From: Escherichia phage CMSTMSU
Length of the DNA: 64,000 nucleotides
Sequence record: MH494197.1
Strand: one strand, 5' to 3'
Part shown: in pieces, positions 45,557 through 64,000 of the stretch
Layout: each line of letters starts with the position of its first letter
Position numbering within the stretch: the first letter of the stretch is position 1
Position numbers and translations under genes: made by a program
Notes under the pieces: model-generated
Told to the model about the DNA's origin: nothing
Databases searched by the model: none
What the model saw: the letters and a program-made list of their open reading frames with translations, nothing else

Positions 45557-46015
45557 TCAATACTGCTTGCGGTACGTCATTTTGTTGTATGCAGTGGTTA
45601 GTTTTTCCATGTTATTGAGAAGACTTAGAAACAATGGAAGTACTTCTGCATTGTCACTGAAGTTACAATCATTGACAGTACTCAATTGGAATAACTCACC
45701 AGCATCAACATTGAGTGTGTTGTATTCTTTAACAATGTTTTCTTCAGTATTGAAGATGTAGAATACAGTCCCCATGTGGTGTAAGTATACACCAGTATCA
45801 TTCTGAATATGACATGGGGTGATTACAATTGCTGTGTTATCAATATTATTTACTATTGTCAAACGCAGACTATGTAACCCAAAGATTACAGTACAATCCT
45901 TTGTACTGTGTTGGATCTGGTCACTAGTAAAGGAAGACCCACTATGATTTTTAGATCCATTTAGTATTTCTTTGATAATTTTAAATGAATACTTCATAGA
46001 ATTAGTTAAAAGCAT
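45557..46015 (-). CDS. FQxS-module multigene family protein
   Basis: 152 aa; motif DAGELFQLSTV. Confidence 0.45.
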   Translation of the reverse strand: MLLTNSMKYSFKIIKEILNGSKNHSGSSFTSDQIQHSTKDCTVIFGLHSLRLTIVNNIDNTAIVITPCHIQNDTGVYLHHMGTVFYIFNTEENIVKEYNTLNVDAGELFQLSTVNDCNFSDNAEVLPLFLSLLNNMEKLTTAYNKMTYRKQY

Positions 46016-46359
46016 GAACTTTACCTTTAAGTAAATTAATTAATGTTCGCATAGATTCAGTACTGACAGTACCAAAATCAACACCTAAGCACTCGTATTG
46101 AAAGAACTCAATAGAATCAATTGAGTCCAAAGGAATCTCAACAACCTGATTCCCTATACCAGACATAGTAACATTGCTTTTATTAATCGTCAAGAAGTTT
46201 TTGAATAAGTATTAAATTTTAGTGAAATCGCATCGGGTGCTTTGTAACAATGCAGTACTGGGAGCCATACACATATAGTACTTTACTTTCACTAAGATCC
46301 GTTTTAAAAAATGAATCCCATTGAAGTATTTCTCATTGGCTCCCATCGCCGCGATTAGT

Positions 46360-46686
46360 TCATCTGTTGTTGTTAACCTTGTTTCGTTCTTCGTTAAACT
46401 GTTGAAAAGCATAGAATACTACCTTAACCATTTGTAGTGTTTCAGACATTACTTCTGATGAAAATTCAACATCATTGAATTTCAGCATAGTGTTCTGTGT
46501 AAAGAAAGTTGCTTCTAAGTCTTCCAGATTGAAGGGTTCATCAAACAAATTAGTACTGAACATGTCAGTCTTCTTCTTGTATGTGAACAAGAATTTGGAA
46601 TTATAACGAAGAACTATTTCATCTTTATTAACCAAAATACGTGCAATGTTCTGACGTGTCAATGTGGTAATGTTTAAATTGAACAC
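46360..46686 (-). CDS. FQxS-module family protein (variant motif)
   Basis: 108 aa; EATFFTQNTML. Confidence 0.35.
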   Translation of the reverse strand: MFNLNITTLTRQNIARILVNKDEIVLRYNSKFLFTYKKKTDMFSTNLFDEPFNLEDLEATFFTQNTMLKFNDVEFSSEVMSETLQMVKVVFYAFQQFNEERNKVNNNR

Positions 46687-46911
46687 GTTCTTGCGTGTTT
46701 CAGTGATATCAACAAAATACCCATCTCCTGATGGATATTACATCGTACATCCAACCCTTTCTGTACTGTATTGAACAGTGCATCTTGAATAAAATAATTT
46801 GCTGTATCGATGTTTCCTAAAATGTCTAACATAACTTCTCCTTGATTGCTGTCATATTTAGAAGAAATTCTTCAAGCAATTCCTCTGTAACATACTCAAC
46901 ATACCAGAATA

Positions 46912-47343
46912 TCACAATATCTTTGAAAGTCGAGTATTCTTAAAAATATCTACTAACTCTTTGTAGTACTCAAGATCATATACATCTTTTATAATTAGTG
47001 AGTACTGAAATAGTGATTCTTCAGTTAACTTAAATTCTGGATATAGTAAGTCATTAAATTCTAATGATTCTGATTGTACTTTTATTTTAGTGAAGTCATT
47101 TGTTAATCCACCATTATATCCATATAATGCAGCGTAATTCACGAACTTGGCTTTTGGATTAAAATCAAGAACAGTTTCACCTTTATATGACAATCGGTGG
47201 AACGCCGTGAACTTTGTAATTTGCCACGGTTGCTTAATGCCTAAGTCATTTATGTCTTTATTATTGTACATAAGAACTGTGAATATTTCAGCAATCTTCA
47301 ATAATAATTTAGTACGTGCTAGTACTGTCATAGGTTCAATCAT
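46912..47343 (-). CDS. FQxS-module family protein
   Basis: 143 aa; EESLFQYSLI. Confidence 0.45.
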   Translation of the reverse strand: MIEPMTVLARTKLLLKIAEIFTVLMYNNKDINDLGIKQPWQITKFTAFHRLSYKGETVLDFNPKAKFVNYAALYGYNGGLTNDFTKIKVQSESLEFNDLLYPEFKLTEESLFQYSLIIKDVYDLEYYKELVDIFKNTRLSKIL

Positions 47344-47813
47344 TATACACCTTCATATTCATCAAGGAAATCTTCGATGATCATTTCTGCATCATCCATA
47401 TGCATAGCATCTACTTCAACAATGCGAACCTTAGATGCATCCCAAATCATATAGCTAGGAACTGTATCTGGTTCGTAATCGTTCTTGTACTGAACTGCAT
47501 CATAGCCGTTAATTTCGCAGTACTCAATCACTCCACGCCATTCGTCGTCACTGCCCATATCCGTCCACAGAAGCACGTTATCAACATCAACTTCTAAGGT
47601 ATGTAAGTATACTGTATCAGCGTCAACAACGTTCAGTGGGCTTCTCAGCTTGCGTAATGCAGCTTCTAAAGCACTGTGTTTACCTCCCATATGAAGGCCA
47701 CCATACGGGATATAAAAGTTATCAATTTTACAGTACTCGCATGATACAGTTTCATTATTCATTCCTATTTCAGTACTTTGACCGGGCTTTAACCGCTGTT
47801 TCAAGTTGTGCAA
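47343..47813 (-). CDS. hypothetical protein
   Basis: 156 aa ORF, acidic C-terminus. Confidence 0.35.
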   Translation of the reverse strand: MHNLKQRLKPGQSTEIGMNNETVSCEYCKIDNFYIPYGGLHMGGKHSALEAALRKLRSPLNVVDADTVYLHTLEVDVDNVLLWTDMGSDDEWRGVIEYCEINGYDAVQYKNDYEPDTVPSYMIWDASKVRIVEVDAMHMDDAEMIIEDFLDEYEGV

Positions 47814-48219
47814 AGTCGTTGATTGTAAGATAATGAATACCCAATGTACTCATTTCTGAATCTATTTTACTATACAAATCGAACATGTCAAGTAGATATT
47901 GATATGTATATGACTCCGATGACACACATGATTCTTGAAATAGACGTTCTTCCATATCATTTACTACTTCATCATTTACGTCTCGAATCACACCATCTTT
48001 GTATGTGTAGTAAATCTCATCCCATTCATCTGATAAGCGGAATAGTAAAGGCTTACCATTAAACATCTCAAGGTCATATGCATTGACTTCACTCAATAAC
48101 ATATCATCAGGATCAGGTGTGAAATCGAATTGAGCGAGTGAAGAACCATCATAATCCTTAAGGAATACACCAATAGCATTCAATTTAACTTCGCCATAAT
48201 TGCCATTCTTGAACTTCAC
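47770..48219 (-). CDS. FQxS-module family protein
   Basis: 149 aa; EERLFQESCV. Confidence 0.45.
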   Translation of the reverse strand: MKFKNGNYGEVKLNAIGVFLKDYDGSSLAQFDFTPDPDDMLLSEVNAYDLEMFNGKPLLFRLSDEWDEIYYTYKDGVIRDVNDEVVNDMEERLFQESCVSSESYTYQYLLDMFDLYSKIDSEMSTLGIHYLTINDFAQLETAVKARSKY

Positions 48220-48336
48220 ACGAATATTAATATCAATGCTTTGAACCGTATCATCATCTTGGAACTGATAATCAATTTTATACTTTTCCCAAAGTTTTTA
48301 ATATCTTTGAAGTACTTAATTTTACTTTCTATTTCT

Positions 48337-48833
48337 TTAAAGTTCATCTGGAACCACCATCTCTTGTATGTTCTTGCATTTTATCATTGCACAATTAGTA
48401 TGTAAAATGATAGAGTACTTATGTAATGATTTAATTTTATAACACTCATTAAGTACTGAAATGATGCCCCATAACTCTTCTACATCAATAGTGATAGGTT
48501 CACTAGTACTAAGTTGCATTAGTGCTGCTTCCACATCATCTTTGTTATTGATTTTGAACTGCATACCACGTTTCAGTATTTTGGTTTTGGATTATACTCT
48601 GCCATTACATCACCTTCAGGGTAACCCTCGTGTAATAATAATGTAGTCTCATAATCTCCACAATTGAAATTAATTTCATCATAGTCAGGAACACAAATCA
48701 TTCCTTCACCATATTGATTATCTACTGATTCGATTGTTAAAATACGCTGATGTTCATTACTCAGGATAATAGAATCGTGCCAGTACTGCGTAGTGAATTT
48801 ACTACGTTTCTTTTGACAGCACATACTTGACAT
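48337..48833 (-). CDS. hypothetical protein (frameshift-fragmented)
   Basis: ORFs 48573-48833 and 48337-48564. Confidence 0.3.
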
Positions 48834-48930: not shown

Positions 48931-49137
48931 TCATTTGTCGTACCCATATAAAATATGATCTAGTGTGCATTGTACTTCTTCATGGAAGAACAATGGGTAA
49001 ATTTGTATTAATTTTTCTTTAAGTTCAAGTGAATGGCATAATTCTAATGCTTTGATACAATCTTCATATTGAACTAAGCTATGTATTGTACTTAACTGGA
49101 AATGTTGTTCTTCAGAGTAAGCTAAATCATATACCAA
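48931..49137 (-). CDS. FQxS-module family protein
   Basis: EEQHFQLSTI; likely extends upstream by frameshift. Confidence 0.4.
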   Translation of the reverse strand: MVYDLAYSEEQHFQLSTIHSLVQYEDCIKALELCHSLELKEKLIQIYPLFFHEEVQCTLDHILYGYDK

Positions 49138-49224
49138 ATTATCATCTAAAAGGTTTGATTTCTTTGAAGGATCAAGTACTGTGTTGCTATGACCTACCCA
49201 GAAAAAGCATTGGTGTTCATATTA

Positions 49225-49479
49225 TTACAACCCCAACCTGCCCCATTTTTGGTGAATAGCAAAGACACAACTATCATAGAGATTAATACCAAGACGCTCT
49301 TCGTTGACATAAATCGTAACACCATCGATTGTCATGGTTATTTGGAAACGCATTGAACCTTCACTTCGTGATCGTGCACAGAAGCCAAGATAACGGTTGA
49401 TAATTGTATTGATTTTATCTGCCCATCCTTCCACATCTTTGGATGCACATAATTTAAAAAGATCATGACTTTGATTCAT
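49225..49479 (-). CDS. hypothetical protein
   Basis: 84 aa ORF. Confidence 0.3.
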   Translation of the reverse strand: MNQSHDLFKLCASKDVEGWADKINTIINRYLGFCARSRSEGSMRFQITMTIDGVTIYVNEERLGINLYDSCVFAIHQKWGRLGL

Positions 49480-49539
49480 GTAGTTCTCCGTTAATCAAGC
49501 ATAAGTGGCATCATCGCCCATATCTTTTCATAATCATAT

Positions 49540-49951
49540 CTTCAGTAAAACAAACGTTTTAGGTGCAGTATATGATATTGACAACCCAAATGGAAGTACG
49601 ATTGCATCATCAATTATATTATGAATATCAAACCATGTTTTACACAATCATATGGTGGAAGTTCATGTATTGTACTTAACTGAAAGTATTGTTCTTCACC
49701 AAATGTACTGCAATCAATATCACAAATTTTAGTGAATTGATGATTCCATTTAGATATAATACTGTTTTATTATTGAACATATTAGTTCTATGCATGAAAC
49801 CATTTCTGCTAATATGATTTGATATTGCGTTTTCTTCAATATCATTGCTTATTTTAAAATTCATGTCAAAGTTGTAGTGCGAACTCGACGATTCTTTGAA
49901 TTTTAAATGAAAATAACGATTGTTATTAATTTCCATTTCAATACAAAACAC
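49540..49951 (-). CDS. FQxS-module family protein (frameshifted)
   Basis: alternative frame of ORF 49676-49951 reads GEEQYFQLSTIHELPP. Confidence 0.35.
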
Positions 49952-50053
49952 ATCTGAATCAAAACGATTAAACTTGTAATCGTTGTCTTCAGGTAGAGTT
50001 TGTAATTTTTCATAACACCAAGCATAGGGTGCACTAAGCTTCTAATAAAATCA

Positions 50054-50446
50054 TTAGTTATTTTCATAGTATTCCTTTAGAACTTTAAATGATTCAACAA
50101 TACTATCTTGTGTGTAATTAGAACTATATACAATTGCATTTGATTTGATTGACCACAGATATGACATAAAGGTTATAACACTACTACATGAACTTAATGT
50201 ATTGTTTTGGAATTCATTTTCTTCAATGTTATCAGTACTGGTATTGATGAATTGGATAGTATCTTGTTTCTGATTAGACATTGAAACTAAAGTACAATCA
50301 GTATAAGGAGTGTACAAAAACGTCTCATTACTAATTGAACTATCATTAGTATATGATGGTTTGGTAATATAAATCAAACGCATGATATCACGCTCAATAC
50401 CCGATTTACGACTTTCCACTAAAGAAATCATATCTATATTTTTCAT
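50054..50446 (-). CDS. FQxS-module family protein (variant)
   Basis: 130 aa; EENEFQNNTL. Confidence 0.4.
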   Translation of the reverse strand: MKNIDMISLVESRKSGIERDIMRLIYITKPSYTNDSSISNETFLYTPYTDCTLVSMSNQKQDTIQFINTSTDNIEENEFQNNTLSSCSSVITFMSYLWSIKSNAIVYSSNYTQDSIVESFKVLKEYYENN

Positions 50447-50555
50447 ATGATCAACATTGACATGGAACTTTTGTTTAGAATTACATCTTTTGGGGAATTT
50501 TTATATGAAGATAAGATCTCATACATCTCAACTAATTCTCGTGCATTTAATAAAC

Positions 50556-50981
50556 TCATGTTTTGTCTCTTAATGAAAGAATATCCTTAGTATAAACTGA
50601 TACAGAAATGTGATTATATTTCATCATTAATTTATACACATAAGAAGCTAGTACTAAATCGTAAATTAATTTAGTATCATACAGTACTCCGTATTGTAAA
50701 GCAAGTGAATCAATATCATCTTTACTTTCAATATCCAGAAATGTGCCGAAATATGTAGTACCGTGGAGATGAAAATTGGAATTAATGCAATCAATGCATT
50801 CATTGTCCAACAGAGTAGATGATGATGCCCTCGGTGAATCCCAAATAGTCACTGCGTGTATGCCCTCAACGAACAAATCTATCCATATTTTGTGTCGTTG
50901 TCTTTTTGTTTTATAATTTTCTGGATTTGAAAGTGTAGTTTCAATTATATCCCATATGTATAAGCATTCATCTCTTGTCAT
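50556..50981 (-). CDS. hypothetical protein
   Basis: 141 aa ORF. Confidence 0.35.
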   Translation of the reverse strand: MTRDECLYIWDIIETTLSNPENYKTKRQRHKIWIDLFVEGIHAVTIWDSPRASSSTLLDNECIDCINSNFHLHGTTYFGTFLDIESKDDIDSLALQYGVLYDTKLIYDLVLASYVYKLMMKYNHISVSVYTKDILSLRDKT

Positions 50982-51099
50982 TATAGCACCTTATCCATTG
51001 CTGCATTTAATGCTTTTAAACGATCAACATTCAAAGTATTGAAGATGTACGTTCCTAAAATGTGGAAATCGAACTGGTTCTTTTTGTATGTGTGATAAA

Positions 51100-51555
51100 T
51101 TAAACTACAAAAACAACAGTACTAAGAACCTCTTCCGGTATAACGGTGCTCATCTGAAACAGTTCTTCATCAACTGTACTTGATTCTGGATTGATAGCTT
51201 TTAACTCATACTCTTTATCACCGAATAGTACTTTAATATTATATAAAACACCAACAGTACTAATATGAAATGGATGGTGTGAAAAACTTCCATCATCATT
51301 AATTTGGATATCGGATCTAATCTCGCACTCTTCATTACTTTTACTATTATTTTTACAATACAAATATTCCGCACCAGAAATAGTAAGAATACCGTGATCG
51401 TAATATTCTTTGGACAAACATTTAGATGAAAATGACACATCACGAATGAGGTAATGTTTGTTAATTTCTTTGGCACTACCAACAATGTGTAGCATCTTTG
51501 TGCTGATATCATATAGCTGTTGGTGTCGGGCTGTCATATAACTATAAGCGTTCAT
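51100..51555 (-). CDS. FQxS-module family protein
   Basis: 151 aa; DEELFQMSTVIPEE. Confidence 0.45.
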   Translation of the reverse strand: MNAYSYMTARHQQLYDISTKMLHIVGSAKEINKHYLIRDVSFSSKCLSKEYYDHGILTISGAEYLYCKNNSKSNEECEIRSDIQINDDGSFSHHPFHISTVGVLYNIKVLFGDKEYELKAINPESSTVDEELFQMSTVIPEEVLSTVVFVV

Positions 51556-52122
51556 ATGTATCCTTGATGTTTTGATTGCCGTGTAGCTCTTTTAATGTAT
51601 CGGATTCACAGTTAATGAACTTACTATACATTACCAATTCACCAGTGTCAATAGCTTTTGCAGTTTCATAGCAAAGCATCATGTACTCAAACTCCTTGAA
51701 GTTGTCAAGTACTGATCTCTGGAAAATGTATGCTTCACGAATGTCTTCACTTTGATCTAGTTCTGGTGGAATTTCCAAATATGTATCATTCTCTACGTCA
51801 TCAAAATTAGATTCAACAATTCGATTAATATCTTCGTGTAAAGCATTGACAAATATCATGTTTGGAGTAATGGAACCGATTTGCTCACTATGCCTTGATG
51901 TGCGGATATACATTGCCATAGTATCCCATGAACCTTTTTCGTCGTTCCATAATCGTAAACTTTATAAGACTCCAGTACTACTGAACCAAAACGATATGGT
52001 GATTTGCATTCAACTTTAAGACGATAATTTCCAATAGGCTCATGTTCAGTAATGTTGTGCTTTTCAGATAGTTCTGCAATGTCATGCATCAATTTCATAA
52101 TTTGAATGTGTTCAGCTTGCAT
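51542..52122 (-). CDS. FQxS-module family protein (frameshift-fragmented)
   Basis: ORFs 51856-52122 and 51542-51919; EAYIFQRSVLD. Confidence 0.4.
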
Positions 52123-52684: not shown

Positions 52685-52747
52685 ATCTTCTCCTGTACTC
52701 TGTTAAAAGCGATTATAACACACCTGAATGCTCATGTAAAGCACTAA

Positions 52748-52778
52748 ACACAAAAAGACCCATAAGGGTCTTTATTTT
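52748..52778. terminator. rho-independent terminator-like hairpin
   Basis: AGACCC-ataa-GGGTCT followed by TTATTTTGG and preceded by an A-run. Confidence 0.5.
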
Positions 52779-53049
52779 GGTAAAACGCTGTCAATGTACG
52801 CTAGAGCCTCATCTCGGAGGTACGTTCCATCTATTGTTATGTAATAGTTCTTAGGATATCACTCCCAATCTTCTCGTAAATTTTCATACATGATATCACA
52901 TCTTCATCACAAATGGTACTCAATTGAAACTGTACTTCATCAGTTAAAGGTACGATATCATGTTTAGATGGGGTTGGTATTTTCATTCAAAACAATATCA
53001 AACAAATTAGGAGTATTCTTTGACGAAATGTAACGATGTTTACTACGAA

Positions 53050-53842
53050 TTACCATTCTCGACAGAGAAATACTGGAACTCCATCTTGGTCCACATCTTC
53101 GTATGTTAACGCAATTAACATTTCATAATAATCTTGGAATTTCATTGATGCATAATATGTTTTGTCCTCACCGTACATTCCAAATGATTTGAATTCAATG
53201 TCACCTACATTGTGTGTATCGCTATCACTATTCACGAATTTTAACAGACTGTTGATTAGTCTGATTAGAATATCATCTTTATTCATTATCAGATAACTCC
53301 CTGTGCATGTTGTATAAATCTCTAAAGTCCTGATAGAAATCTTTTCTTCAAGAATATCTTTTAAACTAGGAATCTCATCCATAATCTCATCGATATCAGT
53401 TTCAATAGTAAAACCTGATTTATAATTTTGTAAGAGATAACTAAAAGCAACAAGATAAAGAATTTCATTTGGTTTATGGATTAACATGTGTTGGAACATA
53501 ACTGATTCTAAATCAGATTCAGTACTAAGGTCAGCATAACATGTATCGTTGGTGTCAATTCGTACTTTACTTGAATTTGGATTCCATGTAAAGCAATGTG
53601 TTCCAACTGTTCCCAAACATCCTACTCTTGTACTATCATTTGTTCCCAAAAGATATCAAAATACGTTTCATCTGTATAATCGTATTTTTGTACTTTACCT
53701 TTTTAAGGCATAAATCATTATCCTTTCGAAAAGTTTTAGATGATAGTGTATCAATGATGCACATTAATGTTTTTGCAAATGCAATACAATGACGTAATTC
53801 AAGTCTATGGAAATTATAATTAGTAAAATTCATAAAATTCAT
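53050..53842 (-). CDS. FQxS-module family protein (variant, frameshift-fragmented)
   Basis: ORFs 53636-53842 and 53050-53649; LESVMFQHMLI. Confidence 0.35.
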
Positions 53843-54381: not shown

Positions 54382-54418
54382 AACCCTCTTTAATTCTTTT
54401 ACATTTTAATGAATACTT

Positions 54419-55250: not shown

Positions 55251-55259
55251 AATTTACCT

Positions 55260-55595
55260 CGTATGTGTTATAATTCCACGTTTTAACACTATCCATTTGT
55301 ATATCCTGAACTTCATGGAAATATTTAAGTACCTTCTGGTATTCCATTAGTTCGTACACATCTTCAGTATTGACAGTGCTCTCCTGAAACAATTCCTCTT
55401 CTGATAAAGTACTATAATCAGGATTTTTATTTCAGAATATATCTCATTCATATATGAATCATTTTGGTAAATCTGTAGATAAAACTGATTATATTCAGGG
55501 ATATAGGTTACGAAATGGTTCTTGATGAATTCATATCTTGAAGCAAAGCAATCATTGCCATCCGTCATGTACTGAATTGTTGTTGTATTATGCAT
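55260..55595 (-). CDS. FQxS-module family protein (frameshifted)
   Basis: ORF 55347-55595; alternative frame reads LSEEELFQESTVNTEDVYEL. Confidence 0.35.
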
Positions 55596-56070: not shown

Positions 56071-56113
56071 AGACCATTTTTCTCCATGTACTCAATGATT
56101 TCATCTACGAAGT

Positions 56114-56400
56114 TTAAATCCATATAGAATCTATCATTTGCGTCATTGAGTTCATCTTTAAGTACTGTAAAAATTGTAGAACTAAACACGATTCTCTCAT
56201 TGTACAAAGTACTGTACTGGAAGAATTCTTCTTCTGATCTAACATTAAATGTGTCATATTCATCATCAACATCAGATCAGGATGATAGTACTTAAAACTA
56301 TCAGATGTATGGAAACAATATGAGATAAAATCCTGATGGTGCATCGTCAAGTACACGAATACCACAGAAATTCTCATCTGTAGTATGCAACAAATTGCTA
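56114..56400 (-). CDS. FQxS-module family protein (frameshifted)
   Basis: alternative frame of ORF 56114-56377 reads SEEEFFQYSTLYNERIVF. Confidence 0.35.
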
Positions 56401-56601
56401 TTCATTGACAAATAATTTTTGTACGCATAAAGTGTGCATCTTGGGAGAATTATATTCTCTTTAACTGTTACAAGGAACTTATGAAGTTTAATGATATTTT
56501 GTGCGATTTTTTGTGCATTGCTAAATGATAGGTCTTTGACATTGTGATATAACCCTTTACAATTAATATAAAGAGATTATATCACAAAGATTTGGAGGGT
56601 G

Positions 56602-57134
56602 TCAAGAGTTCTCACGAAGTTCTACCATTTCTTTCCATACTAAATGGTAATCTTCTAAGTCCAGATAGAAGTCTTCATTTAAGTGCTCATATAAGTACTT
56701 GTACATGAATAGTACACCTAAATTATATTCAGTATTAAGTAATGATTGTTGGAAGTAGTTTTCTTCATTTAGTTCTATATCCATGAACTCAAATCTACCT
56801 AGACCTTTTAATGTACGTATCTCAACATGTGAAGTATCTGTTTTACTGAAGCACATGAATCCACCTCTAAATTCGGATCATATTCACATTCATACTGTCC
56901 ACTGTTATTATAGAAATCTCTATTACCATCCTTATCTTTTGGCTTAACAACTGATACGTGAAGGTCGTCATCTTTGTACATTGTACGTTCTGGCGTTTTC
57001 ACACATTTTAACTTATTTTCTTTAATGTACTTGATAATATCAATTATATCTTGTGCAGTACTGATTGCTGCCTCAAACGTATCCAACTTAAGATGATTGT
57101 ATAGAGTTCCCTCGTTCTTTATTTTATCTAACAT
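56602..57134 (-). CDS. FQxS-module family protein (frameshift-fragmented)
   Basis: ORFs 56808-57134 and 56602-56856; NEENYFQQSLLNTEY ... FYLDLEDYH. Confidence 0.45.
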
Positions 57135-57140
57135 AAAACC

Positions 57141-57479
57141 TCATAGTTCATACATCTTTGATTTGAATTGCATTGGTCCACCAACTTCACATGGATAATT
57201 TTCCATAATACGATTCAAAAGTATCTGGTACTGTTGTAGTACTTCAATTTCCAAATGTATACTACTATCCAGTACTAATGACTCCTGAAACAATTCACCT
57301 CTATCTAAACCTGAAAAATCATTTATAGTTAGCATTGGCTTATCATTTGTACGCAATGTAAATGATTCCTCATTTCGGATTAATGTACAGAATTCATTAT
57401 GTTTTCTGTTGTAATCCATTTTAACCAATAATAACTTGGTGTGAGTTGCGTACATTATTTTTACTAATTCAGTCTTCAT
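57141..57479 (-). CDS. FQxS-module family protein
   Basis: 112 aa; DRGELFQESLVLDSS. Confidence 0.5.
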   Translation of the reverse strand: MKTELVKIMYATHTKLLLVKMDYNRKHNEFCTLIRNEESFTLRTNDKPMLTINDFSGLDRGELFQESLVLDSSIHLEIEVLQQYQILLNRIMENYPCEVGGPMQFKSKMYEL

Positions 57480-57750
57480 AACGGAATAAAATTCTCCTGT
57501 ACTGCTCCGGCTTAGTACTCAATCTCTTCACTGGATAATTGTCGAAGATCCTTTTCATTTCTTTCTGGATTAAACAAAGAAAATCAAAATCACAATAGTA
57601 TTTTTTATCCCATACTAAACTTTCTTGAAACAACTCATCTTCTTGCATTAGCGTAGTATCAATTGTATCTTCACGTGTATTTGAGTACGCTTCATGACAT
57701 TGAAAACCATCCTCGGATAATCCTAATGTATATGCCGCCATTTCAAACAT
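57469..57750 (-). CDS. FQxS-module family protein
   Basis: 93 aa; QEDELFQESLVWDKKYY. Confidence 0.5.
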   Translation of the reverse strand: MFEMAAYTLGLSEDGFQCHEAYSNTREDTIDTTLMQEDELFQESLVWDKKYYCDFDFLCLIQKEMKRIFDNYPVKRLSTKPEQYRRILFRYED

Positions 57751-57832
57751 ATCATCATTTGTCTTTAACGAAAGTAAACAACAAACGTATTTTTCGTTGT
57801 GTAGTAAGTAATGCTAATGGTATTCATTGGAT

Positions 57833-58435
57833 TTAAACCTCAGTATAAAGCTTACAATAGCTTTCATCGAAATCAAAAATACTTCTCAAGAACTGACAAA
57901 GGTCAGTAAAAATATTTACATTTGCTATATACACATTATCAAATTCTGTTCTTTCGAAGAATGTATGCATAGAATTTGTAATATATCTCATTGCAGATTC
58001 ACGCTGCATTGTTATATCATTTGTGAACATCGCATCTTCATCAGTACTGACTAATTCAATATCAAATGATTGCATATATGGGATACTCTTCCCTAGTGCA
58101 AAGCTATCACCGTATGATGCTTCAACTGCACCTTTAGAATACACCAATTGATATAAGTCCGAAATAGGGTTATAAAAAGTACGACATATTGATGAACATA
58201 ATTTATTATCTATCCAAAAGAAAACCCTATTTGTATTACCGTCAAATGCTATACGCAATCCATCACCATCTAACGATATATCACCATCGAGATTAAAAGA
58301 GAACTGAACTAATGCTTTTTCTAAGTCCATTCTTTTGTGATAAATGATTTCTTGCATATAGATAATATCATTTACTAATTTCTTAAAATACAAATGAACC
58401 TCAGTACTACAACATTTATTTGCATTTAATAACAT
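57833..58435 (-). CDS. hypothetical protein
   Basis: intact 200 aa ORF. Confidence 0.4.
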   Translation of the reverse strand: MLLNANKCCSTEVHLYFKKLVNDIIYMQEIIYHKRMDLEKALVQFSFNLDGDISLDGDGLRIAFDGNTNRVFFWIDNKLCSSICRTFYNPISDLYQLVYSKGAVEASYGDSFALGKSIPYMQSFDIELVSTDEDAMFTNDITMQRESAMRYITNSMHTFFERTEFDNVYIANVNIFTDLCQFLRSIFDFDESYCKLYTEV

Positions 58436-58484
58436 AGTAGATCCTTATACATTGCATGTATTCTTACAATGTCTCTGTAATAAC

Positions 58485-58918
58485 TCATATCTTCACGATT
58501 ATCATTAAAACAGTAACACTGAATACAGCAGTACTAATTGAACTATCAACAATGTACTCTTTTAATTTATTATAAAGATATATGCACTTAGTAGATGTAT
58601 CATCCCACATAAGACTATTTTGAAAGATGTTTTCTTCTGTGTTAGGATATAAGTACTGCTCAATCTTGTACCCCAATGAACTATCACAGTTTTTATATAC
58701 AGAAATAGATGGACATTCATATTGCACATAATACTAATAACATTATCATTGTATGTAGAAATTAAACTGGTACTGGATGCTACACTTTCATCGTAATTCA
58801 GTACTGAAATTCTTGCATTATCTGTGCAGTACAGATGTTTCATTCCACCTCTCATAGCTAGAGTAAGAAATTTATCAGTGAACCATATTCCTTTTGTTTT
58901 CAGTATAGTTTCATGCAT
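58485..58918 (-). CDS. FQxS-module family protein (frameshift-fragmented)
   Basis: ORFs 58562-58918 and 58485-58727; TEENIFQNSLMWDD. Confidence 0.45.
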
Positions 58919-58966
58919 AAGATAAGTTTCAATGAAGATTTTACACGCTCAAATGCCAAGTCAAGT

Positions 58967-59158
58967 TCATTGTACATAACGAATATCCTTCTGTAAGGAA
59001 TCAATATATTCTTTAACAACTTGTTCCTGATACTGTGTGCCCAAATACATCAGTACTTTTAACTCTTTGAATTCAGTACTATATGAGTCGGTTTGCATCA
59101 TTTTAGAAGAATATATATTGAATAGTTTAGCAATATCATCTTGGTCTATTATTTTCAT
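58967..59158 (-). CDS. hypothetical protein
   Basis: 63 aa ORF. Confidence 0.3.
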   Translation of the reverse strand: MKIIDQDDIAKLFNIYSSKMMQTDSYSTEFKELKVLMYLGTQYQEQVVKEYIDSLQKDIRYVQ

Positions 59159-59203
59159 TAACCCTCTTCTGAATAAGTTCCTGTAAGTGCTGAATATAAC
59201 CCT

Positions 59204-59841
59204 TCATTGCAACATCCTGTTTGTTAGAGCCAACGAAGAACAAGAGCTTAAAGTCATGGTAATCCATTTTGGTTTAGTAGTGAACCATATGTCCCACACT
59301 GCACTCACAGTTCTCATGTATTCAATTCGATTAAATGTTTTGAATACTTCATCGAAATCAACCTTTAATAAATTGATATTTAAATTACTGTTAAATGCCA
59401 TCTGCAATTCCATATAGAACTGAATAATAGCATAGTCAGGATCAGTACAAGATAGTTGAAAGCACTGTTCTTCAAATGAATTGTAATTGTACTTAGGAAT
59501 ATTAATAGTACGATATAACTCTGGATAACCCCATATCATAGTGTACACGTCAATTTCAGTACACTTTTTCTTAAAAGTCATCTGTCGAATAGTTTCAGAT
59601 CTGGATTCAAGGTATACAACATTCTTATGAACTGCTGAACCAATTGAAATCAATGATGTATCAATGACGTGTTTTCCACGTATCTCACACTTCTGGAATG
59701 CACCATTCCCTGTAAAAGTTTATGGAAATCGTACTTCTCACTAATAACTGTACTAGGATCGATTAAACCAGTACTGCATTTTTCAGTACTGGTACGATAG
59801 TGCGAATCTTTTTGATAAATCTTGTAATGCATCATAATCAT
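59204..59841 (-). CDS. FQxS-module family protein (frameshift-fragmented)
   Basis: ORFs 59650-59841 and 59204-59653; FEEQCFQLSCTDPDY. Confidence 0.45.
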
Positions 59842-59914
59842 TAATGTTAATTTTTCTCAAAGGATGCCTCTTCTATAGTAACGAAATCAACTAACCTATC
59901 AAGTTTTTCAGTGT

Positions 59915-60298
59915 CTAGATAAAATATATCCAGTACTGACTTCTGATATAGTACACTAAATGTACATAGATTGTCAAGTGTTCCTTCATTATAAACAGTA
60001 CTTCGAAGTACCCTTCTTCTGTACTCAGAGATAAAATATCAGAAATTTTAAAAGATTCTTCATTCTCATGACGCTCTATCGTAACTTCATCATATTTTCT
60101 GTTCAATGAAATATAATCGTATGCTAATTCAATAGTACTACAGTTGTTGTTGCTAGTGTCAAATAAAGAATCAATTGTAATCTTCGTGCCATTAGAAACT
60201 TCTCTTCGTTCATCATCTACGTATTCAGGATTTTCTTTGAAGAACTTAACAACTTTTAGAATATCATTTGCTTTCTTGATTGCACTTTCGTAACTCAT
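59915..60298 (-). CDS. FQxS-module family protein (variant)
   Basis: 127 aa; STEEGYFEVL. Confidence 0.4.
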   Translation of the reverse strand: MSYESAIKKANDILKVVKFFKENPEYVDDERREVSNGTKITIDSLFDTSNNNCSTIELAYDYISLNRKYDEVTIERHENEESFKISDILSLSTEEGYFEVLFIMKEHLTIYVHLVYYIRSQYWIYFI

Positions 60299-60382
60299 TT
60301 TTTCTGGACTCCATATATATCACCTGATTTAGTTCATATACATAATCTAAATCAATGAATATAGAATTATTAAAGTTCTCTT

Positions 60383-60565
60383 TCAGAAATGCATTAAAAC
60401 TACTAAAGCTCTTAATGCACTATTTGGGTATATAGTACTGTACTGGAAGTAAGCATCTTCTGAATTTAAGAATAGTACTTCTTCTTCGGTGAATTCAAAA
60501 TATTTTCCACTTTCATCGATTGAATAGAAAGTTCCAGAATCCCATACGAAGTACTTGAATTCCAA
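60383..60565 (-). CDS. FQxS-module family protein
   Basis: NSEDAYFQYSTIYPN; N-terminus likely further upstream. Confidence 0.4.
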   Translation of the reverse strand: MEFKYFVWDSGTFYSIDESGKYFEFTEEEVLFLNSEDAYFQYSTIYPNSALRALVVLMHF

Positions 60566-60734
60566 ATCATAATCATGGGACTCGTACTTATATTCATTAC
60601 CTAATCCTAGAATATCTGTACCAACACTTATAGTACTAATATATGCCCTTTATAGTCTAAGTACTTTACATTATTTTGAAAGAACTTTACTATATTAACT
60701 AATTCCTCAGCGTGCTTAAGATCACTTTCGTACA

Positions 60735-61109
60735 TTATATTTCAATCTCTATATATTTTTGGGTAATTAAGTAATCCCAGTAGTACTTCACATGTTTTTG
60801 TATCTCAAGTAAAGCATAAAAATTAATTCTCTTGTCCCATACAAGTGATTCCTGAAAAATAAATGATTCATGGTCATCTCTGTAATCACATTCAAGGAAG
60901 TCAGGAATATAATCACAATCGTGAAGATATTCAATCATTAAAGATTCATTACATCTTCTAACGGCAAGGTGCTGGAAATTATCATGATCGAAGAAATACA
61001 TTAAACTAATTGTACCGGAATGTACTGAATACTGTATAAGAATTTCATCGTTTGCCCTTATGTTCGGTACGTACATATTCATAATCCAAATAAAATCTTG
61101 TGCTATCAA
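60735..61109 (-). CDS. FQxS-module family protein
   Basis: 124 aa; DDHESFIFQESLVWDKRINFY. Confidence 0.45.
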   Translation of the reverse strand: MIAQDFIWIMNMYVPNIRANDEILIQYSVHSGTISLMYFFDHDNFQHLAVRRCNESLMIEYLHDCDYIPDFLECDYRDDHESFIFQESLVWDKRINFYALLEIQKHVKYYWDYLITQKYIEIEI

Positions 61110-61227
61110 TACTTTTAAAGTACCACATAATAACTAAAGTATCTAGTACTTCATCATCATACAAAGTACTATTCTGAAAGTAATACTCTTCACTATCCCA
61201 CGGACCTTTCAGTACTTCAAAGTTCAA
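61045..61227 (-). CDS. FQxS-module family protein
   Basis: VLKGPWDSEEYYFQNSTLYDDEVLDTLVIMWYFKS ... FYLDYEYV; may be fused to 60735-61109 by a frameshift. Confidence 0.45.
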   Translation of the reverse strand: MNFEVLKGPWDSEEYYFQNSTLYDDEVLDTLVIMWYFKSIDSTRFYLDYEYVRTEHKGKR

Positions 61228-61229
61228 TT

Positions 61230-61745
61230 TTAACGGTCTACTGCGATTATAAAACGGATTTCACCTCCATATGCATAACTAATAAATTCTGCATCTGGAT
61301 TGTATTGTGAAAAATCTGCTGGACTTTTGGAATTCAAACCAAGAATAACTGTAGTTGTAGCAAAATCACTATCCTTGTAGTAGTTACCATTCTCGGCTTT
61401 GTATACTTCTTCGAACTTCCCAGCCTTAATATCTTCAATATATGCCTGTAGTTCTTTTGCTTTATCAAGAGCACTTCGTAATGACATTATCTTCCCTACA
61501 GTATTCTCTACGTATTCATAATCGAAATAGAAACTACTAGAGCCAATACTTTTAAAGTACCACATAATTACAATAACATCTAATTCTTCTTCATTGTACA
61601 CAGTACTGTTCTGGAAGTAATATTCTTCACTATCCCACGGACCTTCCAGTACTGAATACGGAATGATTGTGTCATCATCATCGTAATCAGGGCTGTAAAT
61701 TATAATATCTTCATCTCTACAATAACTAATGTACTGATTGTACAT
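61230..61745 (-). CDS. FQxS-module family protein
   Basis: 171 aa; PYSVLEGPWDSEEYYFQNSTVYNEEELDVIVIMWYFKS ... FYFDYEYV. Confidence 0.5.
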   Translation of the reverse strand: MYNQYISYCRDEDIIIYSPDYDDDDTIIPYSVLEGPWDSEEYYFQNSTVYNEEELDVIVIMWYFKSIGSSSFYFDYEYVENTVGKIMSLRSALDKAKELQAYIEDIKAGKFEEVYKAENGNYYKDSDFATTTVILGLNSKSPADFSQYNPDAEFISYAYGGEIRFIIAVDR

Positions 61746-61905
61746 ATGATATTCACAGTCATCAGTATCACCCGTATCAGTGTGTAGTACTAACGTTTCT
61801 GCACATATCTCTGACTCATCATAATCGTCGCGGTCTTTTACAAAAATTCAGTATCAGATGTTTTATACACACGGCACTGAACCTTCTTGTACCATAATCA
61901 TGTAA

Positions 61906-62103
61906 TCATGAATCTTCTTTGCTTCTTTCAATGCACTTTCTAATGACATTACTAATCCCTGTACTTAAATATTCACATGCTCCCCAGTCAAGGAAGAAGG
62001 GTTCAAAATTCAATTCCTTAAAGTACCACAAAACAACCAAGGAATCAAGCATTTCTTGGTTAAAAATAAGACTCTGTTGGAAGTAATACTCTTCAGTACC
62101 CAC
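61906..62103 (-). CDS. FQxS-module family protein
   Basis: TEEYYFQQSLIFNQEMLDSLVVLWYFKE; N-terminal part in another frame to about 62350. Confidence 0.45.
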   Translation of the reverse strand: MGTEEYYFQQSLIFNQEMLDSLVVLWYFKELNFEPFFLDWGACEYLSTGISNVIRKCIERSKEDS

Positions 62104-62363
62104 GGCCCATCAAGTACCCGAAGTCAACAGGTGTATTTGATGTGTCAAAAGTAATCTTAGTACGGAATATATACAAAGAAACTAGTATATTGACTACATG
62201 AAGAGTACTGTATAGTATTGTCTTTATCATGGCCCATAAGTAAAATATCATCAGAGTATGTCTTTATACCTGATAGATAATACTCATTACCAAATGCACT
62301 TACTTTATCACCATAGAAACCACTTTTATGTTATCGTGGAAGTGATGTATTTTGTGTGCCAGT

Positions 62364-62738
62364 TTAAGTGCACTTGCTAAACTCATATATCCTCTTTAAT
62401 AACTCGTAGTAGATCCAAGTCCAGATAGAAGCTAGGACAATCGGTATTATTAAAGTACCACAGAATGACAAGCTTGTCAAGCACATATTCCTCGTAGATA
62501 GTATTCTGCTGGAAGTAGAACTCTTCACTTCCCAGTCATTATCCAGTACTGAATACGGAAGATGTTTCTCTGCTGCACCAGTTATAATGTCAGTATATTG
62601 TATTAAAATATCAGCATCACGACAGAAGTACATGTAATTATCTTCCAGATTAACATCACACCCAGTGAGTGTTGTTTCAGAAGAATCTAAGTTTTCTTCG
62701 TACATGTGAATGTACTCACTACTGTCATCGTATATCAT
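62364..62738 (-). CDS. FQxS-module family protein (frameshifted)
   Basis: LPYSVLDNDWE then, after a 1-nt shift, SEEFYFQQNTIYEEYVLDKLVILWYFNN ... FYLDLD. Confidence 0.45.
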   Translation of the reverse strand: MIYDDSSEYIHMYEENLDSSETTLTGCDVNLEDNYMYFCRDADILIQYTDIITGAAEKHLPYSVLDNDWEVKSSTSSRILSTRNMCLTSLSFCGTLIIPIVLASIWTWIYYELLKRIYEFSKCT

Positions 62739-63124
62739 TCGACAATAAGCTTTACCTTCCTTGAATAGATACCCATTGAGACGATTGAGTACTATTTCCT
62801 TTTACATAAATCAATTAACTTAGCAATTTCTAATGCTCTTGTAAAACTCATATCAACTCCTGTGTTGTGTCTTGATATAATCTCGGTACACCATGTGAAT
62901 ATTAGCTATATACAATTCACTAATATCATATGTACCGAAGTTCATGTCATTCCTAATGCTGTTGTTATGTCTAATATCAATTACGAATCGTCGAAGTATT
63001 GTATTCATGAATGATTCCATTTGTTCTTTTTATTCATAGCTTAAAACGATACCTATCTTTGAATCAGACTCTATACAGATTCTTCTATATTCTTTCATCT
63101 TCTGTTGGAGTTCAATTACTTCCT

Positions 63125-63448
63125 CTAGTGTACACAAGTACTTTTGTCAAATATTAATGACTCTTGAAATATTTCAGCCTCACCATGTACTGTTGTATAG
63201 TCTTTCATATTTTCTACAACTGTTCCTTTGGACTGATAATCAATGAAGCTAAAGTAAGCACCATTAAATTTAATGTACTGATCCATTTTGTGTTCATAAT
63301 CACCTTTGTTAAGATTGCAATACACTTCTAGCGAAGTACTAATCTTAGGTATAAACATAGAAAAATCATATTCCATATTACTCACCTGTATTGAAATAAT
63401 AATTACTTGTTGTTGGTGTAGATGTATCAAAGGTGTTTTCTTTAACAT
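63125..63448 (-). CDS. FQxS-module family protein
   Basis: N-domain MEYDFSMF ... CNLNKGDYEH and C-module HGEAEIFQESLIFDK. Confidence 0.45.
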   Translation of the reverse strand: MLKKTPLIHLHQQQVIIISIQVSNMEYDFSMFIPKISTSLEVYCNLNKGDYEHKMDQYIKFNGAYFSFIDYQSKGTVVENMKDYTTVHGEAEIFQESLIFDKSTCVH

Positions 63449-63743
63449 ATCTCTTCATTTCATTTTGTATAAAAATCATATCTTCTATTGTACATGAGTA
63501 CTTATTCTTGTCAAACACCAAAGAAGCTTGAAATAGTTCAGCATTATCTAGTACTGTATAATCTGTAATACTTTCAGAGTTATAGTCGAAGTCATCATGT
63601 AATACATCAATGAAATTAAAACACAAATCGGAGTACTGAATATATAAACTCAACTCATGTTCCGAATCACCCTTGATAAGATTACAGCATAAATCCCATC
63701 CTGTTCTGGACCTGCAAACGTACATTGAATAATCATATGTCAT
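63378..63743 (-). CDS. FQxS-module family protein
   Basis: 121 aa; N-domain MTYDYSMY ... CNLIKGDSEH; C-module YTVLDNAELFQASLVFDKNKY ... IQNEMKRY. Confidence 0.5.
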   Translation of the reverse strand: MTYDYSMYVCRSRTGWDLCCNLIKGDSEHELSLYIQYSDLCFNFIDVLHDDFDYNSESITDYTVLDNAELFQASLVFDKNKYSCTIEDMIFIQNEMKRYVKENTFDTSTPTTSNYYFNTGE

Positions 63744-64000
63744 TATGTAATTCCTATATTGAATTTGTATTCTTGATTAATACTTACATTGGATGTATTC
63801 AAAGCAGCATACTCTTTCATTTCATTTTGTATAGCAATTACTTCTTCTAGTGTACACAAGTACTTCTTATCAAATACTAATGCAGCTTGGAATAGTTCAG
63901 CGGCATCCATTACTGTATAATCCGGCATATCTTGATGTGGATACTGTAATGAATCGTAATCAATAAATGTAAATTTACCCTGAGTGTAATGAATATACTC
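63743..64000 (-). CDS. FQxS-module family protein (5' end beyond window)
   Basis: YTVMDAAELFQAALVFDKKY ... IQNEMKEY; upstream in-frame coding continues to the window edge. Confidence 0.45.
   Translation of the reverse strand, partial: EYIHYTQGKFTFIDYDSLQYPHQDMPDYTVMDAAELFQAALVFDKKYLCTLEEVIAIQNEMKEYAALNTSNVSINQEYKFNIGIT

What the first reader, a model, noticed from the sequence alone, without database searches (positions are those of the whole stretch)
45557..64000. Tandem array of 30 or more small paralogous genes sharing an E-E-x-[YFL]-F-Q-x-S-[LT]-[VIL] module
Nearly every ORF from about 45.5 kb to the window edge carries this module, e.g. EEYYFQNSTVY, EEYYFQQSLIF, EEMYFQGSCI, EESYFQNSLIY, EENYFQQSLL, DELFQESLVWDK, AELFQASLVFDK. 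Two subfamilies are visible: one continues ...LD.LVIMWYFK...FYLDYEY, the other ...SLVWDK...IQNEMK.Y. N-terminal regions are more variable, though adjacent copies can be homologous (MTYDYSMY / MEYDFSMF). I do not recognise the domain. An expansion this large in a phage suggests a diversifying host-interaction or anti-defence arsenal. The core superficially resembles a potyviral NIa/TEV cleavage site (E-x-x-Y-x-Q-S/G), which may be coincidence.
Basis: seen in the sequence. Interest (0 to 1): 0.85.

Follow-up and report, generated by a model that had tools for sequence, protein, structure and literature searches.

The report
Forty-copy FQ-motif gene family, jumbo phage
A giant E. coli virus gives about 8% of its genome to some 45 tandem copies of one small, mostly acidic protein with no recognisable relatives. 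All copies keep the same 14-residue core, so the family is real and undescribed, but its function is untested.

Summary
On the minus strand between 45.5 kb and the window edge, 26 matches to the motif occur where 0.4 are expected by chance, and none occur elsewhere on that strand. The window is a Rak2-like jumbo coliphage (Asteriusvirus; 98% identical to phage WPEC3). Its ORFs are broken by about 94 one-base homopolymer or CCWGG deletions, which look like sequencing errors; the genes are intact in relatives.

Profile searches give 29 family genes in the window and 44-45 in a 29-kb array in WPEC3. They also give 41 in PBECO4, at least 31 in a Klebsiella RaK2-like phage, and 18-24 in two metagenomic lineages. 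The consensus is [LM]-[ST]-E-E-x-[YLHF]-F-Q-x-S-[LT]-[VIL]-[YHW]-[DN], with F and Q invariant. Synonymous codons vary at these positions, so selection acts on the protein.

There is no Pfam, NCBIfam, PADLOC or PDB match. Only 173 clusters among 1.84 billion proteins match, all 55-202 aa. AlphaFold models (pLDDT 79 and 92) place the motif in a confident helix inside an alpha/beta domain, which argues against a TEV-like cleavage site.

Orthologues evolve faster than flanking genes (omega 0.25 against 0.12) but remain under purifying selection. My best reading is an early-expressed set of diversified binding proteins. Function is unproven.

The parts
45516..46015 (-). Family gene 1, long form, 166 aa in WPEC3; motif GELFQLSTVN; first copy of the array
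   Evidence: Mapped from WPEC3 CDS L001 2475-2975; HMM E=3e-16; 1-nt deletion in the window
46826..47343 (-). Family gene, long form, 172 aa; EESLFQYSLI
47765..48347 (-). Family gene, long form, 194 aa; EERLFQESCV
48931..49479 (-). Family gene, long form, 183 aa; EEQHFQLSTI
49491..50067 (-). Family gene, long form, 193 aa; EEQYFQLSTI
50054..50559 (-). Family gene, long form, 168 aa; EENEFQNNTL
50556..50981 (-). Possible degenerate member, 142 aa, no clear motif
   Evidence: hhalign probability 40%, P=3e-4, aligned over the motif columns; not found by the HMM
50981..51555 (-). Family gene, long form, 192 aa; DEELFQMSTV
51542..52122 (-). Possible divergent member, 194 aa; EAYIFQRSVL
   Evidence: Regex match; hhalign probability 39%; HMM not significant
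52712..52773 (-). Terminator-like hairpin (52773-52754) followed by a sigma-70-like promoter (52740-52712; TTTACA-17-TATAAT with TG) in an 87-nt gap
   Evidence: the gap is one of only 8 junctions longer than 40 nt
52772..53286 (-). Family gene, long form, 172 aa; DEVQFQLSTI
53279..53842 (-). Family gene, divergent motif ESVMFQHMLI, 185 aa
   Evidence: Iterated HMM E=1.8e-17
54362..54841 (-). Family gene, long form, 160 aa; EESYFQNSLI
   Evidence: orthologues range from 100% to 31% identity across 35 phage records
54841..55250 (-). Family gene, 137 aa; DELFQYSLV
55234..55595 (-). Family gene, short form, 120 aa; EEELFQESTV
55588..56070 (-). Family gene, long form, 160 aa, intact in the window; EEMYFQGSCI (fits the strict TEV consensus)
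56067..56542 (-). Family gene, long form, 159 aa; EEEFFQYSTL
56576..56605 (-). Perfect sigma-70-type promoter (TTGACA-18-TATAAT, TG extension) in the 59-nt gap before the gene that starts at 56542
   Evidence: 12 of 12 matches
56602..57134 (-). Family gene, long form, 177 aa; EENYFQQSLL
57141..57479 (-). Family gene, short form, 112 aa, intact in the window; GELFQESLVL
57469..57827 (-). Family gene, short form, 119 aa; EDELFQESLVWDK...IQKEMK
58426..58977 (-). Family gene, long form, 184 aa; EENIFQNSLMW
59331..59860 (-). Family gene, long form, 177 aa; EEQCFQLSCT
59857..60298 (-). Family gene, long form, 148 aa; EEGYFQGSTV in WPEC3. In the window a 4-nt deletion at a CCTGG site breaks the motif itself (reads EEGYFEVLF)
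60295..60735 (-). Family gene, long form, 147 aa; EDAYFQYSTI
60735..61048 (-). Family gene, short form, 104 aa; ESFIFQESLVWDK
61045..61487 (-). Family gene, long form, 147 aa; EEYYFQNSTLY...LVIMWYFK...FYLDYEY; the protein modelled with AlphaFold2
61462..61949 (-). Family gene, long form, 163 aa; EEYYFQNSTVY
61952..62386 (-). Family gene, long form, 146 aa; EEYYFQQSLIF
62383..62851 (-). Family gene, long form, 156 aa; EEFYFQQNTIY
63034..63448 (-). Family gene, short form, 138 aa; EAEIFQESLIFDK; N-terminus MEYDFSMF
63378..63743 (-). Family gene, short form, 121 aa, intact in the window; AELFQASLVFDK...IQNEMK; modelled with AlphaFold2
63743..64000 (-). Family gene, short form, cut by the window end; AELFQAALVFDK. 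The array runs on for another 10-11 kb in WPEC3

Best explanation
Shown: the region is a tandem, single-strand array of one lineage-specific multigene family in Rak2-like jumbo phages of enterobacteria. Each gene encodes a small (about 105-200 aa), mostly acidic protein. In the two models made, one long-form and one short-form copy, an antiparallel beta-sheet packs against helices.

The long form adds an N-terminal helix and an extra helix after the motif. The near-invariant stretch [ST]-E-E-x-[YF]-F-Q-x-S-[LT]-[VI]-[YW]-[DN] is a short N-capped helix, a tight linker and the N-cap of the next helix, at the centre of the fold.

Inferred mechanism: the proteins are non-enzymatic binding proteins, presumably cytoplasmic, made early or in the middle of infection from operon-like units read by the host sigma-70 polymerase. 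The motif is the structural keystone that lets the rest of the sequence drift. The variable sheet and termini give each paralogue its own target among host, defence or competitor proteins. The array grew by local tandem duplication and evolves by birth and death.

Which targets are bound, and whether the role is host takeover or anti-defence, is not known.
For: Family and array:
- 26 motif matches against 0.43 expected.
- 44-45 HMM members in one 29-kb block of WPEC3 and none in 59 kb of flanks.
- 41 copies in PBECO4, at least 31 in Klebsiella phage RCIP0023, 18-24 in two metagenomic lineages.

Protein-level selection: mixed synonymous codons at the invariant F, Q and S; median omega 0.25 in 38 orthologue pairs.

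Fold: AlphaFold2 gives pLDDT 78.9 / pTM 0.76 for the long form and 91.7 / 0.86 for the short form, with the motif helical at pLDDT above 90.

No enzyme or known-domain signal. All 173 relatives among 1.84 billion proteins are 55-202 aa, and the listed matches cover most of each protein, so there are no fusions.

Acidic: median pI 4.85, 61% below 5, against 5.76 and 29% for flanking ORFs.

Operon-like layout: 44 of 70 junctions overlap, only 8 gaps exceed 40 nt, two of them carrying strong sigma-70-type promoters. The array lies just downstream of, and co-directional with, the small spaced genes at the genome end. The equivalent region of the relative CBB was proposed to be early (PMC5259590).

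Tandem duplication: the best paralogue lies within 2 positions for 45%, against 9% by chance.

Faster evolution than neighbours: orthologue identity 0.79 against 0.88, omega 0.25 against 0.12. Cross-genus orthologues are 23-46% identical, against 64% for RNA ligase.
Against: - No direct evidence of expression time, location, partners or phenotype.
- Omega of 0.25 and collinear cross-genus orthologues fit stable, distinct functions as well as an arms race.
- Six conserved polar residues in 13 positions (S/T, E, E, Q, S, D) are more than a purely structural role usually needs. They could mark a shared binding site.
- I had no model coordinates, so burial of F, Q and S was not measured.
- The high-confidence short-form model could not be fold-searched (cap reached; afdb50 unavailable), so a remote structural relative is not excluded.
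Confidence: 0.45

Rival explanations
1. Hub-docking (adaptor) model. The invariant acidic-aromatic motif is an exposed, shared docking surface for one common partner, such as a host hub (RNA polymerase, ribosome, an AAA+ unfoldase) or a phage protein. The variable part recruits different targets, in the manner of viral F-box or BTB adaptor families. The phage ClpP homologue encoded about 25 kb downstream could be the effector.
For: F and Q are invariant and E-E and S are conserved at 83-92% across 143 clusters that are otherwise under 25% identical. The conserved polar residues cluster within 13 positions. A true ClpP homologue (PF00574, E=1e-41) and a second ClpP-like protein are encoded in the same co-directional gene block.
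Against: The motif is modelled as part of the folded core with the highest pLDDT in the protein. Its S/T-E-E start and D/N end are typical helix caps (general knowledge of helix capping). Co-occurrence with ClpP is confounded by shared ancestry and was not tested beyond synteny. No partner is known.
Confidence: 0.2
2. Co-assembly model. The paralogues associate with each other through the conserved module and build a hetero-oligomeric structure or scaffold in the infected cell.
For: Translationally coupled, operon-like arrangement suggests co-expression. One conserved module sits in otherwise divergent proteins.
Against: No evidence of oligomerisation. Copy number differs between relatives (45, 41, at least 31). 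Seven WPEC3 copies lack a PBECO4 orthologue, which is hard to square with a fixed-stoichiometry assembly. None is annotated as a virion protein in PBECO4, while small neighbours outside the array are.
Confidence: 0.1
3. Cleavage-site or degron model. E-E-x-Y-F-Q|x-S is recognised by a TEV/3C-like or other phage protease, which releases or destroys the C-terminal module.
For: The sequence resemblance to ENLYFQ/S is real. E at P6 occurs in 83% of clusters, Y at P3 in 41%, and F at P2 and Q at P1 in 100%. Two copies in the window region, EEMYFQG and EEGYFQG, fit the strict consensus.
Against: The motif is helical and confidently packed in both models, whereas protease sites are extended and accessible (general knowledge). 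The conserved Ser is at P2' and P1' is variable. In the about 30 kb of flank annotated by others, the protease-named genes I scanned with Pfam were ClpP-type or unassignable; no PA-clan protease was seen. The conserved stretch continues well past the putative scissile bond into the hydrophobic L-V-Y.
Confidence: 0.04
4. Enzyme family. E-E, Q and S form a catalytic or cofactor-binding site, and the paralogues act on different substrates.
For: Invariant polar residues.
Against: No similarity to any enzyme family or fold. The short form is only about 105 aa. Forty-five enzyme paralogues in one phage would be unprecedented. The T of S-T is replaced by L in half of the clusters, and the order of conserved residues does not fit the R-S-E ADP-ribosyltransferase pattern I considered from memory.
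Confidence: 0.05
5. Artefact or junk. The copies are a mis-assembled repeat, or decaying duplicates without function.
For: Almost every copy is frameshifted in the window.
Against: The frameshifts are homopolymer and CCWGG deletions typical of sequencing error. The genes are intact in independent genomes. Paralogues are only about 15-40% identical. Omega is 0.25. Synonymous codons differ at the invariant residues.
Confidence: 0.02

Closest known systems
Multigene families of large eukaryotic DNA viruses, such as African swine fever virus MGF110/360/505 and the poxvirus Bcl-2-like family (from general knowledge)
   Same: Dozens of divergent paralogues of one fold, arranged in tandem on one strand towards a genome end, with copy-number differences between strains and faster evolution than core genes.
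   Different: No sequence or fold relationship. The host is a bacterium. A role in host range or immune evasion, known for those families, is untested here. This family keeps a 14-residue near-invariant motif, which those families lack.
Lineage-specific expansion of about 35 zinc-ribbon proteins in Bacillus phage G (Iyer et al. 2021, PMC7824862)
   Same: A very large expansion of one small domain within a single jumbo phage, function unknown.
   Different: That domain is a recognisable Zn-ribbon, proposed to bind DNA. This family has no conserved Cys/His, no known fold, is acidic, and is conserved as an array across several phage genera.
TEV / potyviral NIa protease recognition site E-x-x-Y-x-Q-(S/G), canonical ENLYFQ/S
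   Same: E at P6, Y at P3 (41% of clusters), F at P2 and Q at P1.
   Different: Here the residues lie in a confidently modelled helix of a folded domain. The conserved Ser is at P2'. No cognate protease was found. The resemblance is best read as coincidence, with one practical consequence for TEV-cleavable tags.
PHROG families 9317, 12674, 34017, 28680, 28549, 13866, 15629 and others
   Same: These are the same proteins. Members hit them at E of 1e-41 to 1e-90 and cross-hit between PHROGs.
   Different: PHROGs splits the family into many separate groups, all labelled 'unknown function'. The unity of the family, its motif and its array structure are not recorded there, nor in the papers read.

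Membership tests
TEV/NIa-type protease cleavage site | Sequence fits E-x-x-Y-x-Q-(S/G) | tested here: inconclusive
   E(P6) 83%, Y(P3) 41%, Q(P1) 100%, but P1' is variable (Y, L, N, E, Q, K most common) and the conserved Ser is at P2'. Only 2 of the 43 aligned WPEC3 copies fit strictly.
TEV/NIa-type protease cleavage site | Site lies in an extended, accessible segment | tested here: not met
   DSSP helix 100-106 (long form) and 67-76 (short form), with block pLDDT 91-98. These are models, not structures.
TEV/NIa-type protease cleavage site | A cognate chymotrypsin-fold (PA clan) protease is encoded | tested here: inconclusive
   In the about 30 kb of flank, two of the four protease-named genes scanned matched ClpP and two matched nothing. 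The rest of the roughly 350-kb genome was not scanned.
TEV/NIa-type protease cleavage site | Proteins are cut after the Gln in infected cells | not testable with these tools
   Needs immunoblot or N-terminomics.
Any curated protein family or solved fold | Significant match to Pfam-A, NCBIfam, PADLOC, PDB sequences or PDB folds | tested here: not met
Viral multigene family formed by tandem duplication | Paralogues adjacent, on the same strand, in one block | tested here: met
   44-45 members in 29 kb, all on the minus strand, none in 59 kb of flanks.
Viral multigene family formed by tandem duplication | Closest paralogues are neighbours | tested here: met
   45% have their best paralogue within 2 positions, against 9% expected (maximum 25% in 2000 randomisations).
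Viral multigene family formed by tandem duplication | Copy number and content vary between related viruses | tested here: met
   45 (WPEC3) against 41 (PBECO4), with 7 WPEC3 copies lacking a reciprocal orthologue. Only 16 reciprocal pairs with the Klebsiella phage.
Viral multigene family formed by tandem duplication | Members modulate host range or host immunity | not testable with these tools
   Needs genetics.
Bacterial beta-clamp-binding motif (QL[SD]LF / QLxLxL; recalled from memory) | Q-L-x-L-x-[LF]-type peptide in a flexible terminus or loop | tested here: not met
   Q-x-S-[LT]-[VIL]-[YHW] matches positions 1, 4 and 6 only. Position 2 is L in 30 of 143 clusters. The segment is internal and modelled as folded.
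Acidic DNA-mimic anti-restriction proteins (Ocr/ArdA type; recalled from memory) | Strongly acidic surface, and sequence or fold similarity to known mimics | tested here: inconclusive
   Median pI is 4.85 but the range is 4.1-9.2. No sequence or fold similarity to any solved protein. Charge patterning was not analysed.

The most novel reading that the evidence does not exclude
The array is a bacteriophage counterpart of the multigene families of large eukaryotic DNA viruses. It would be a combinatorial arsenal in which each of about 45 paralogues neutralises a different host defence or host factor, so that gain, loss and divergence of copies set host range. In the bolder version, the invariant E-E-x-Y-F-Q-x-S module docks all of them onto one hub, for example an unfoldase working with the phage-encoded ClpP. 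That would make the family substrate adaptors that send diverse host proteins to degradation.
Probability: 0.3. Interest if true: 0.85.

Novelty: new variant of a known kind. Interest (0 to 1): 0.6.

Why it matters
About 29 kb, roughly 8% of a 350-380-kb phage genome and some 45 genes, is spent on one protein family. That family has no name, no Pfam entry, no detectable fold relative and no published description, yet it is conserved as an array across at least four lineages of Rak2-like jumbo phages that infect E. coli, Salmonella and Klebsiella.

Several of these phages are being characterised for therapy. Knowing what their largest gene family does bears on host range and safety.

The family is also a ready experimental system: about 170 natural variants of one scaffold with a fixed 14-residue core.

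One practical point: 41% of the variants carry E-x-x-Y-F-Q, so TEV-cleavable tags may cut the proteins if the motif becomes exposed.

Tried and rejected
1. Alternative genetic code or real pseudogenes as the cause of the fragmented ORFs. Rejected: the indels are homopolymer and CCWGG deletions relative to a 98%-identical genome with intact genes.

2. A DNA-level repeat or recombination signal. This was prompted by short nucleotide matches at the motif between distant phages. Rejected because synonymous codons and both serine codon boxes are used.

3. The search for related loci with the family alignment failed: no stretch was conserved enough to back-translate. The search for homologous proteins, with a single sequence and with the profile, returned only Asteriusvirus-type proteins. 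The exhaustive profile search was needed to see the breadth.

4. Single-protein tblastn did not reach the Klebsiella phages. Fetching the syntenic region through the RNA ligase did.

5. An R-S-E ADP-ribosyltransferase reading of 'F-Q-x-S-T' and 'E-E'. Rejected: the order of elements is wrong, T is often L, and there is no fold match.

6. The beta-clamp-binding motif reading. Rejected (see the membership test).

7. Whether the interspersed non-family genes are hidden members. hhalign gives only two weak candidates at about 40%.

8. Literature searches in jumbo-phage genome papers and reviews found only generic remarks on paralogues.

Full report
**What the window is.** Megablast places the window in the Asteriusvirus group of Rak2-like jumbo coliphages. 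It is 98% identical to phage WPEC3, 85% to PBECO4 and 83% to 121Q, with weaker matches to Klebsiella, Erwinia, Serratia and Pectobacterium jumbo phages. All genes of the region lie on the minus strand. G+C is about 32%.

**Sequence quality.** Aligning window 43-64 kb to WPEC3 gives 98.2% identity but 94 indels. Nearly all are 1-nt deletions that shorten runs of T, A, G or C, or small deletions inside CCWGG. This is the signature of uncorrected long-read errors.
- It explains why one search shows broken ORFs where WPEC3 and PBECO4 annotate intact genes of 100-200 aa.
- Only 3 of the 28 family genes that lie wholly inside the window are unbroken there.
- Frameshifted fragments identical to window ORFs are present in the public protein collection (P0079, P0113). 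P0004, a 171-aa protein of the unverified record 'Escherichia phage CMSTMSU', has the length of window ORF 61230-61745. That record is probably the source.
- I therefore used WPEC3 as the intact proxy and mapped its genes back to window coordinates.

- A regex for the motif gives 26 minus-strand matches between 45674 and 63898 and none on that strand in the first 45 kb. Block shuffles of the window give a mean of 0.43.
- A module HMM, then an iterated full-length HMM, finds 44 members in WPEC3 within one 29-kb block. It finds none in 59 kb of flanking sequence on either side. My own ORF calling adds one copy that the WPEC3 annotation missed.
- Twenty-nine members fall inside the window. The first starts at 45516 and the last is cut by the window end. 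The array continues for another 10-11 kb.
- Roughly two thirds of the genes in the stretch are members. Two others are weak profile-profile candidates and several carry what look like degenerate motifs.

**Not a DNA repeat or artefact.** Paralogues are mostly 15-40% identical. At the invariant positions the codons are mixed: TTT 27 / TTC 16; CAG 26 / CAA 17; serine AGT 14, TCA 12, AGC 5, TCT 2. Selection is on the protein.

**Anatomy of the family.**
- Across 143 clusters at 50% identity the consensus is [LM]-[ST]-E-E-x-[YLHF]-F-Q-x-S-[LT]-[VIL]-[YHW]-[DN]. F and Q are invariant, the two E are at 83-84% and S at 92%.
- Lengths are bimodal: 103-138 aa and 146-202 aa.
- The long-form AlphaFold2 model (pLDDT 78.9, pTM 0.76) has an N-terminal helix, six strands, a short helix at 100-106 that carries E-E-Y-Y-F-Q-N, a long helix at 112-126, a strand and a last helix.
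- The short-form model (pLDDT 91.7, pTM 0.86) has five strands, the motif helix at 67-76, two further helices and a final strand.
- In both models the motif region has the highest confidence.
- Read against general rules of helix capping, S/T-E-E is an N-cap with helix-favouring acidic residues. The D/N seven residues after the F is the N-cap of the next helix.
- The proteins tend to be acidic: median pI 4.85, median net charge -8. All 173 relatives are short, and the listed matches cover most of each protein, so none is a fusion to another domain.

**Comparison with known families.** Nothing matches.
- Pfam, NCBIfam and PADLOC, scanned with all 43 aligned members, give only scattered single-member hits.
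- A profile search of all PDB sequences gives no hit at E up to 10.
- Foldseek against predicted viral structures returns only family members from 121Q, SP27, RaK2 and GAP32, and weakly Serratia phage BF.
- PHROGs contains the proteins but splits them over many groups of unknown function.
- The genome papers and reviews I read mention paralogues only in general terms.

**Distribution.**
- An exhaustive profile search of 1.84 billion representative proteins returns only 173 hits at E up to 1e-3.
- Every named member comes from an E. coli jumbo phage, or from a roughly 350-kb contig labelled E. coli.
- Fetching the syntenic region of the Klebsiella phage RCIP0023 showed at least 31 copies with the same motif.
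- Two metagenomic contigs unrelated at the DNA level carry 18 and 24 copies in tandem.

**Evolution.**
- For WPEC3 against PBECO4, 38 of 45 copies have reciprocal orthologues. Median identity is 0.79 and median omega 0.25. The 57 flanking gene pairs give 0.88 and 0.12.
- dS varies from 0.02 to 2.7 between neighbouring genes, which indicates mosaic recombination.
- The best paralogue lies within two positions for 45% of copies, against 9% by chance.
- Sixteen copies have reciprocal, largely collinear partners in the Klebsiella phage at 23-46% identity. The RNA ligase nearby is 64% identical.
- So the expansion is old, evolves faster than enzymes, turns over by birth and death, and each retained copy is under purifying selection.

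**Expression context.**
- Of 70 gene junctions in the array, 44 overlap and 16 have gaps of 0-15 nt.
- The few long gaps include a perfect TTGACA-18-TATAAT promoter (56605-56576). Another holds a terminator-promoter pair (52773-52712).
- Upstream in the direction of transcription lie a second paralogue array and then small genes separated by about 90-nt spacers, running towards the end of the WPEC3 record. The corresponding region of phage CBB was proposed to be early on the basis of RpoD-like promoters.
- Early or middle expression by host polymerase is therefore an inference, not a result.

**The TEV resemblance.** It is real at the sequence level: E at P6, Y at P3 in 41% of clusters, F at P2, Q at P1. 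However:
- the motif is helical and confidently packed;
- P1' is variable and the conserved Ser is at P2';
- the proteases nearby are a true ClpP homologue (E=1e-41) and a divergent ClpP-like protein, not a chymotrypsin-fold enzyme.

I rate a cleavage role at about 4%.

**Most likely mechanism and rivals.** The evidence fits a set of non-enzymatic binding proteins on one scaffold. The motif would be the structural keystone and the variable surfaces would give each paralogue its own target (0.45).
- The main rival is that the motif is a shared docking surface for a hub (0.2). The number of conserved polar residues keeps this alive.
- Co-assembly (0.1), enzyme (0.05), cleavage site (0.04) and artefact (0.02) follow.
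- None of these can be separated further without experiments or model coordinates.

**Verdict.** The 'arsenal' reading is reasonable but unproven. Interest 0.6.

Noticed in passing
window 43000-64000 (probably the whole window): 94 indels against WPEC3 in 21 kb. Almost all are 1-nt deletions in homopolymers, and about 9 are 2-4-nt deletions inside CCWGG (Dcm) sites. This is typical of uncorrected nanopore assemblies and suggests the sequenced DNA carried Dcm methylation. Gene calls made on this record are unreliable.
   Followed up: partly
window 58967-59158; L002 1-6600 and L008 13000-21400 (beyond the window edge): A second large paralogue family of 60-90-aa proteins with a core L-G-T-[ND]-x-Q-E. 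There is one copy inside the FQ array in the window. About 32 copies lie in WPEC3 and 32 in PBECO4 immediately upstream in the direction of transcription, and 13 in the Klebsiella phage locus. Function unknown.
   Followed up: partly
L003 5093-5788, 1553-2161, 10076-10489, 10486-10713 (roughly window 17-26 kb): The co-directional block downstream of the array encodes four notable proteins. One is a true ClpP homologue (PF00574, E=1e-41), annotated elsewhere as 'head maturation protease'. The others are a second, divergent ClpP-like protein, a weak PTH2-like protein and a DnaJ-type zinc-finger / anti-TRAP-like 75-aa protein.
   Followed up: partly
L001 20424-20786 (window 63378-63743): The WPEC3 record annotates a 41-aa ORF in another frame here (L001 20528-20653). 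The real gene is a 120-aa family member, which is intact in the window.
   Followed up: yes
L001/L003 against L007/L008 (whole array and flank): Synonymous divergence between WPEC3 and PBECO4 swings from 0.02 to over 2 between adjacent genes. This indicates a fine-grained recombination mosaic among Asteriusvirus genomes.
   Followed up: no
L002 6800-28200 (beyond the window edge): Towards the end of the WPEC3 record the genes are very small (30-130 aa), each separated by spacers of about 60-100 nt. This differs from the overlapping genes of the two arrays and is consistent with individually promoted immediate-early genes.
   Followed up: no
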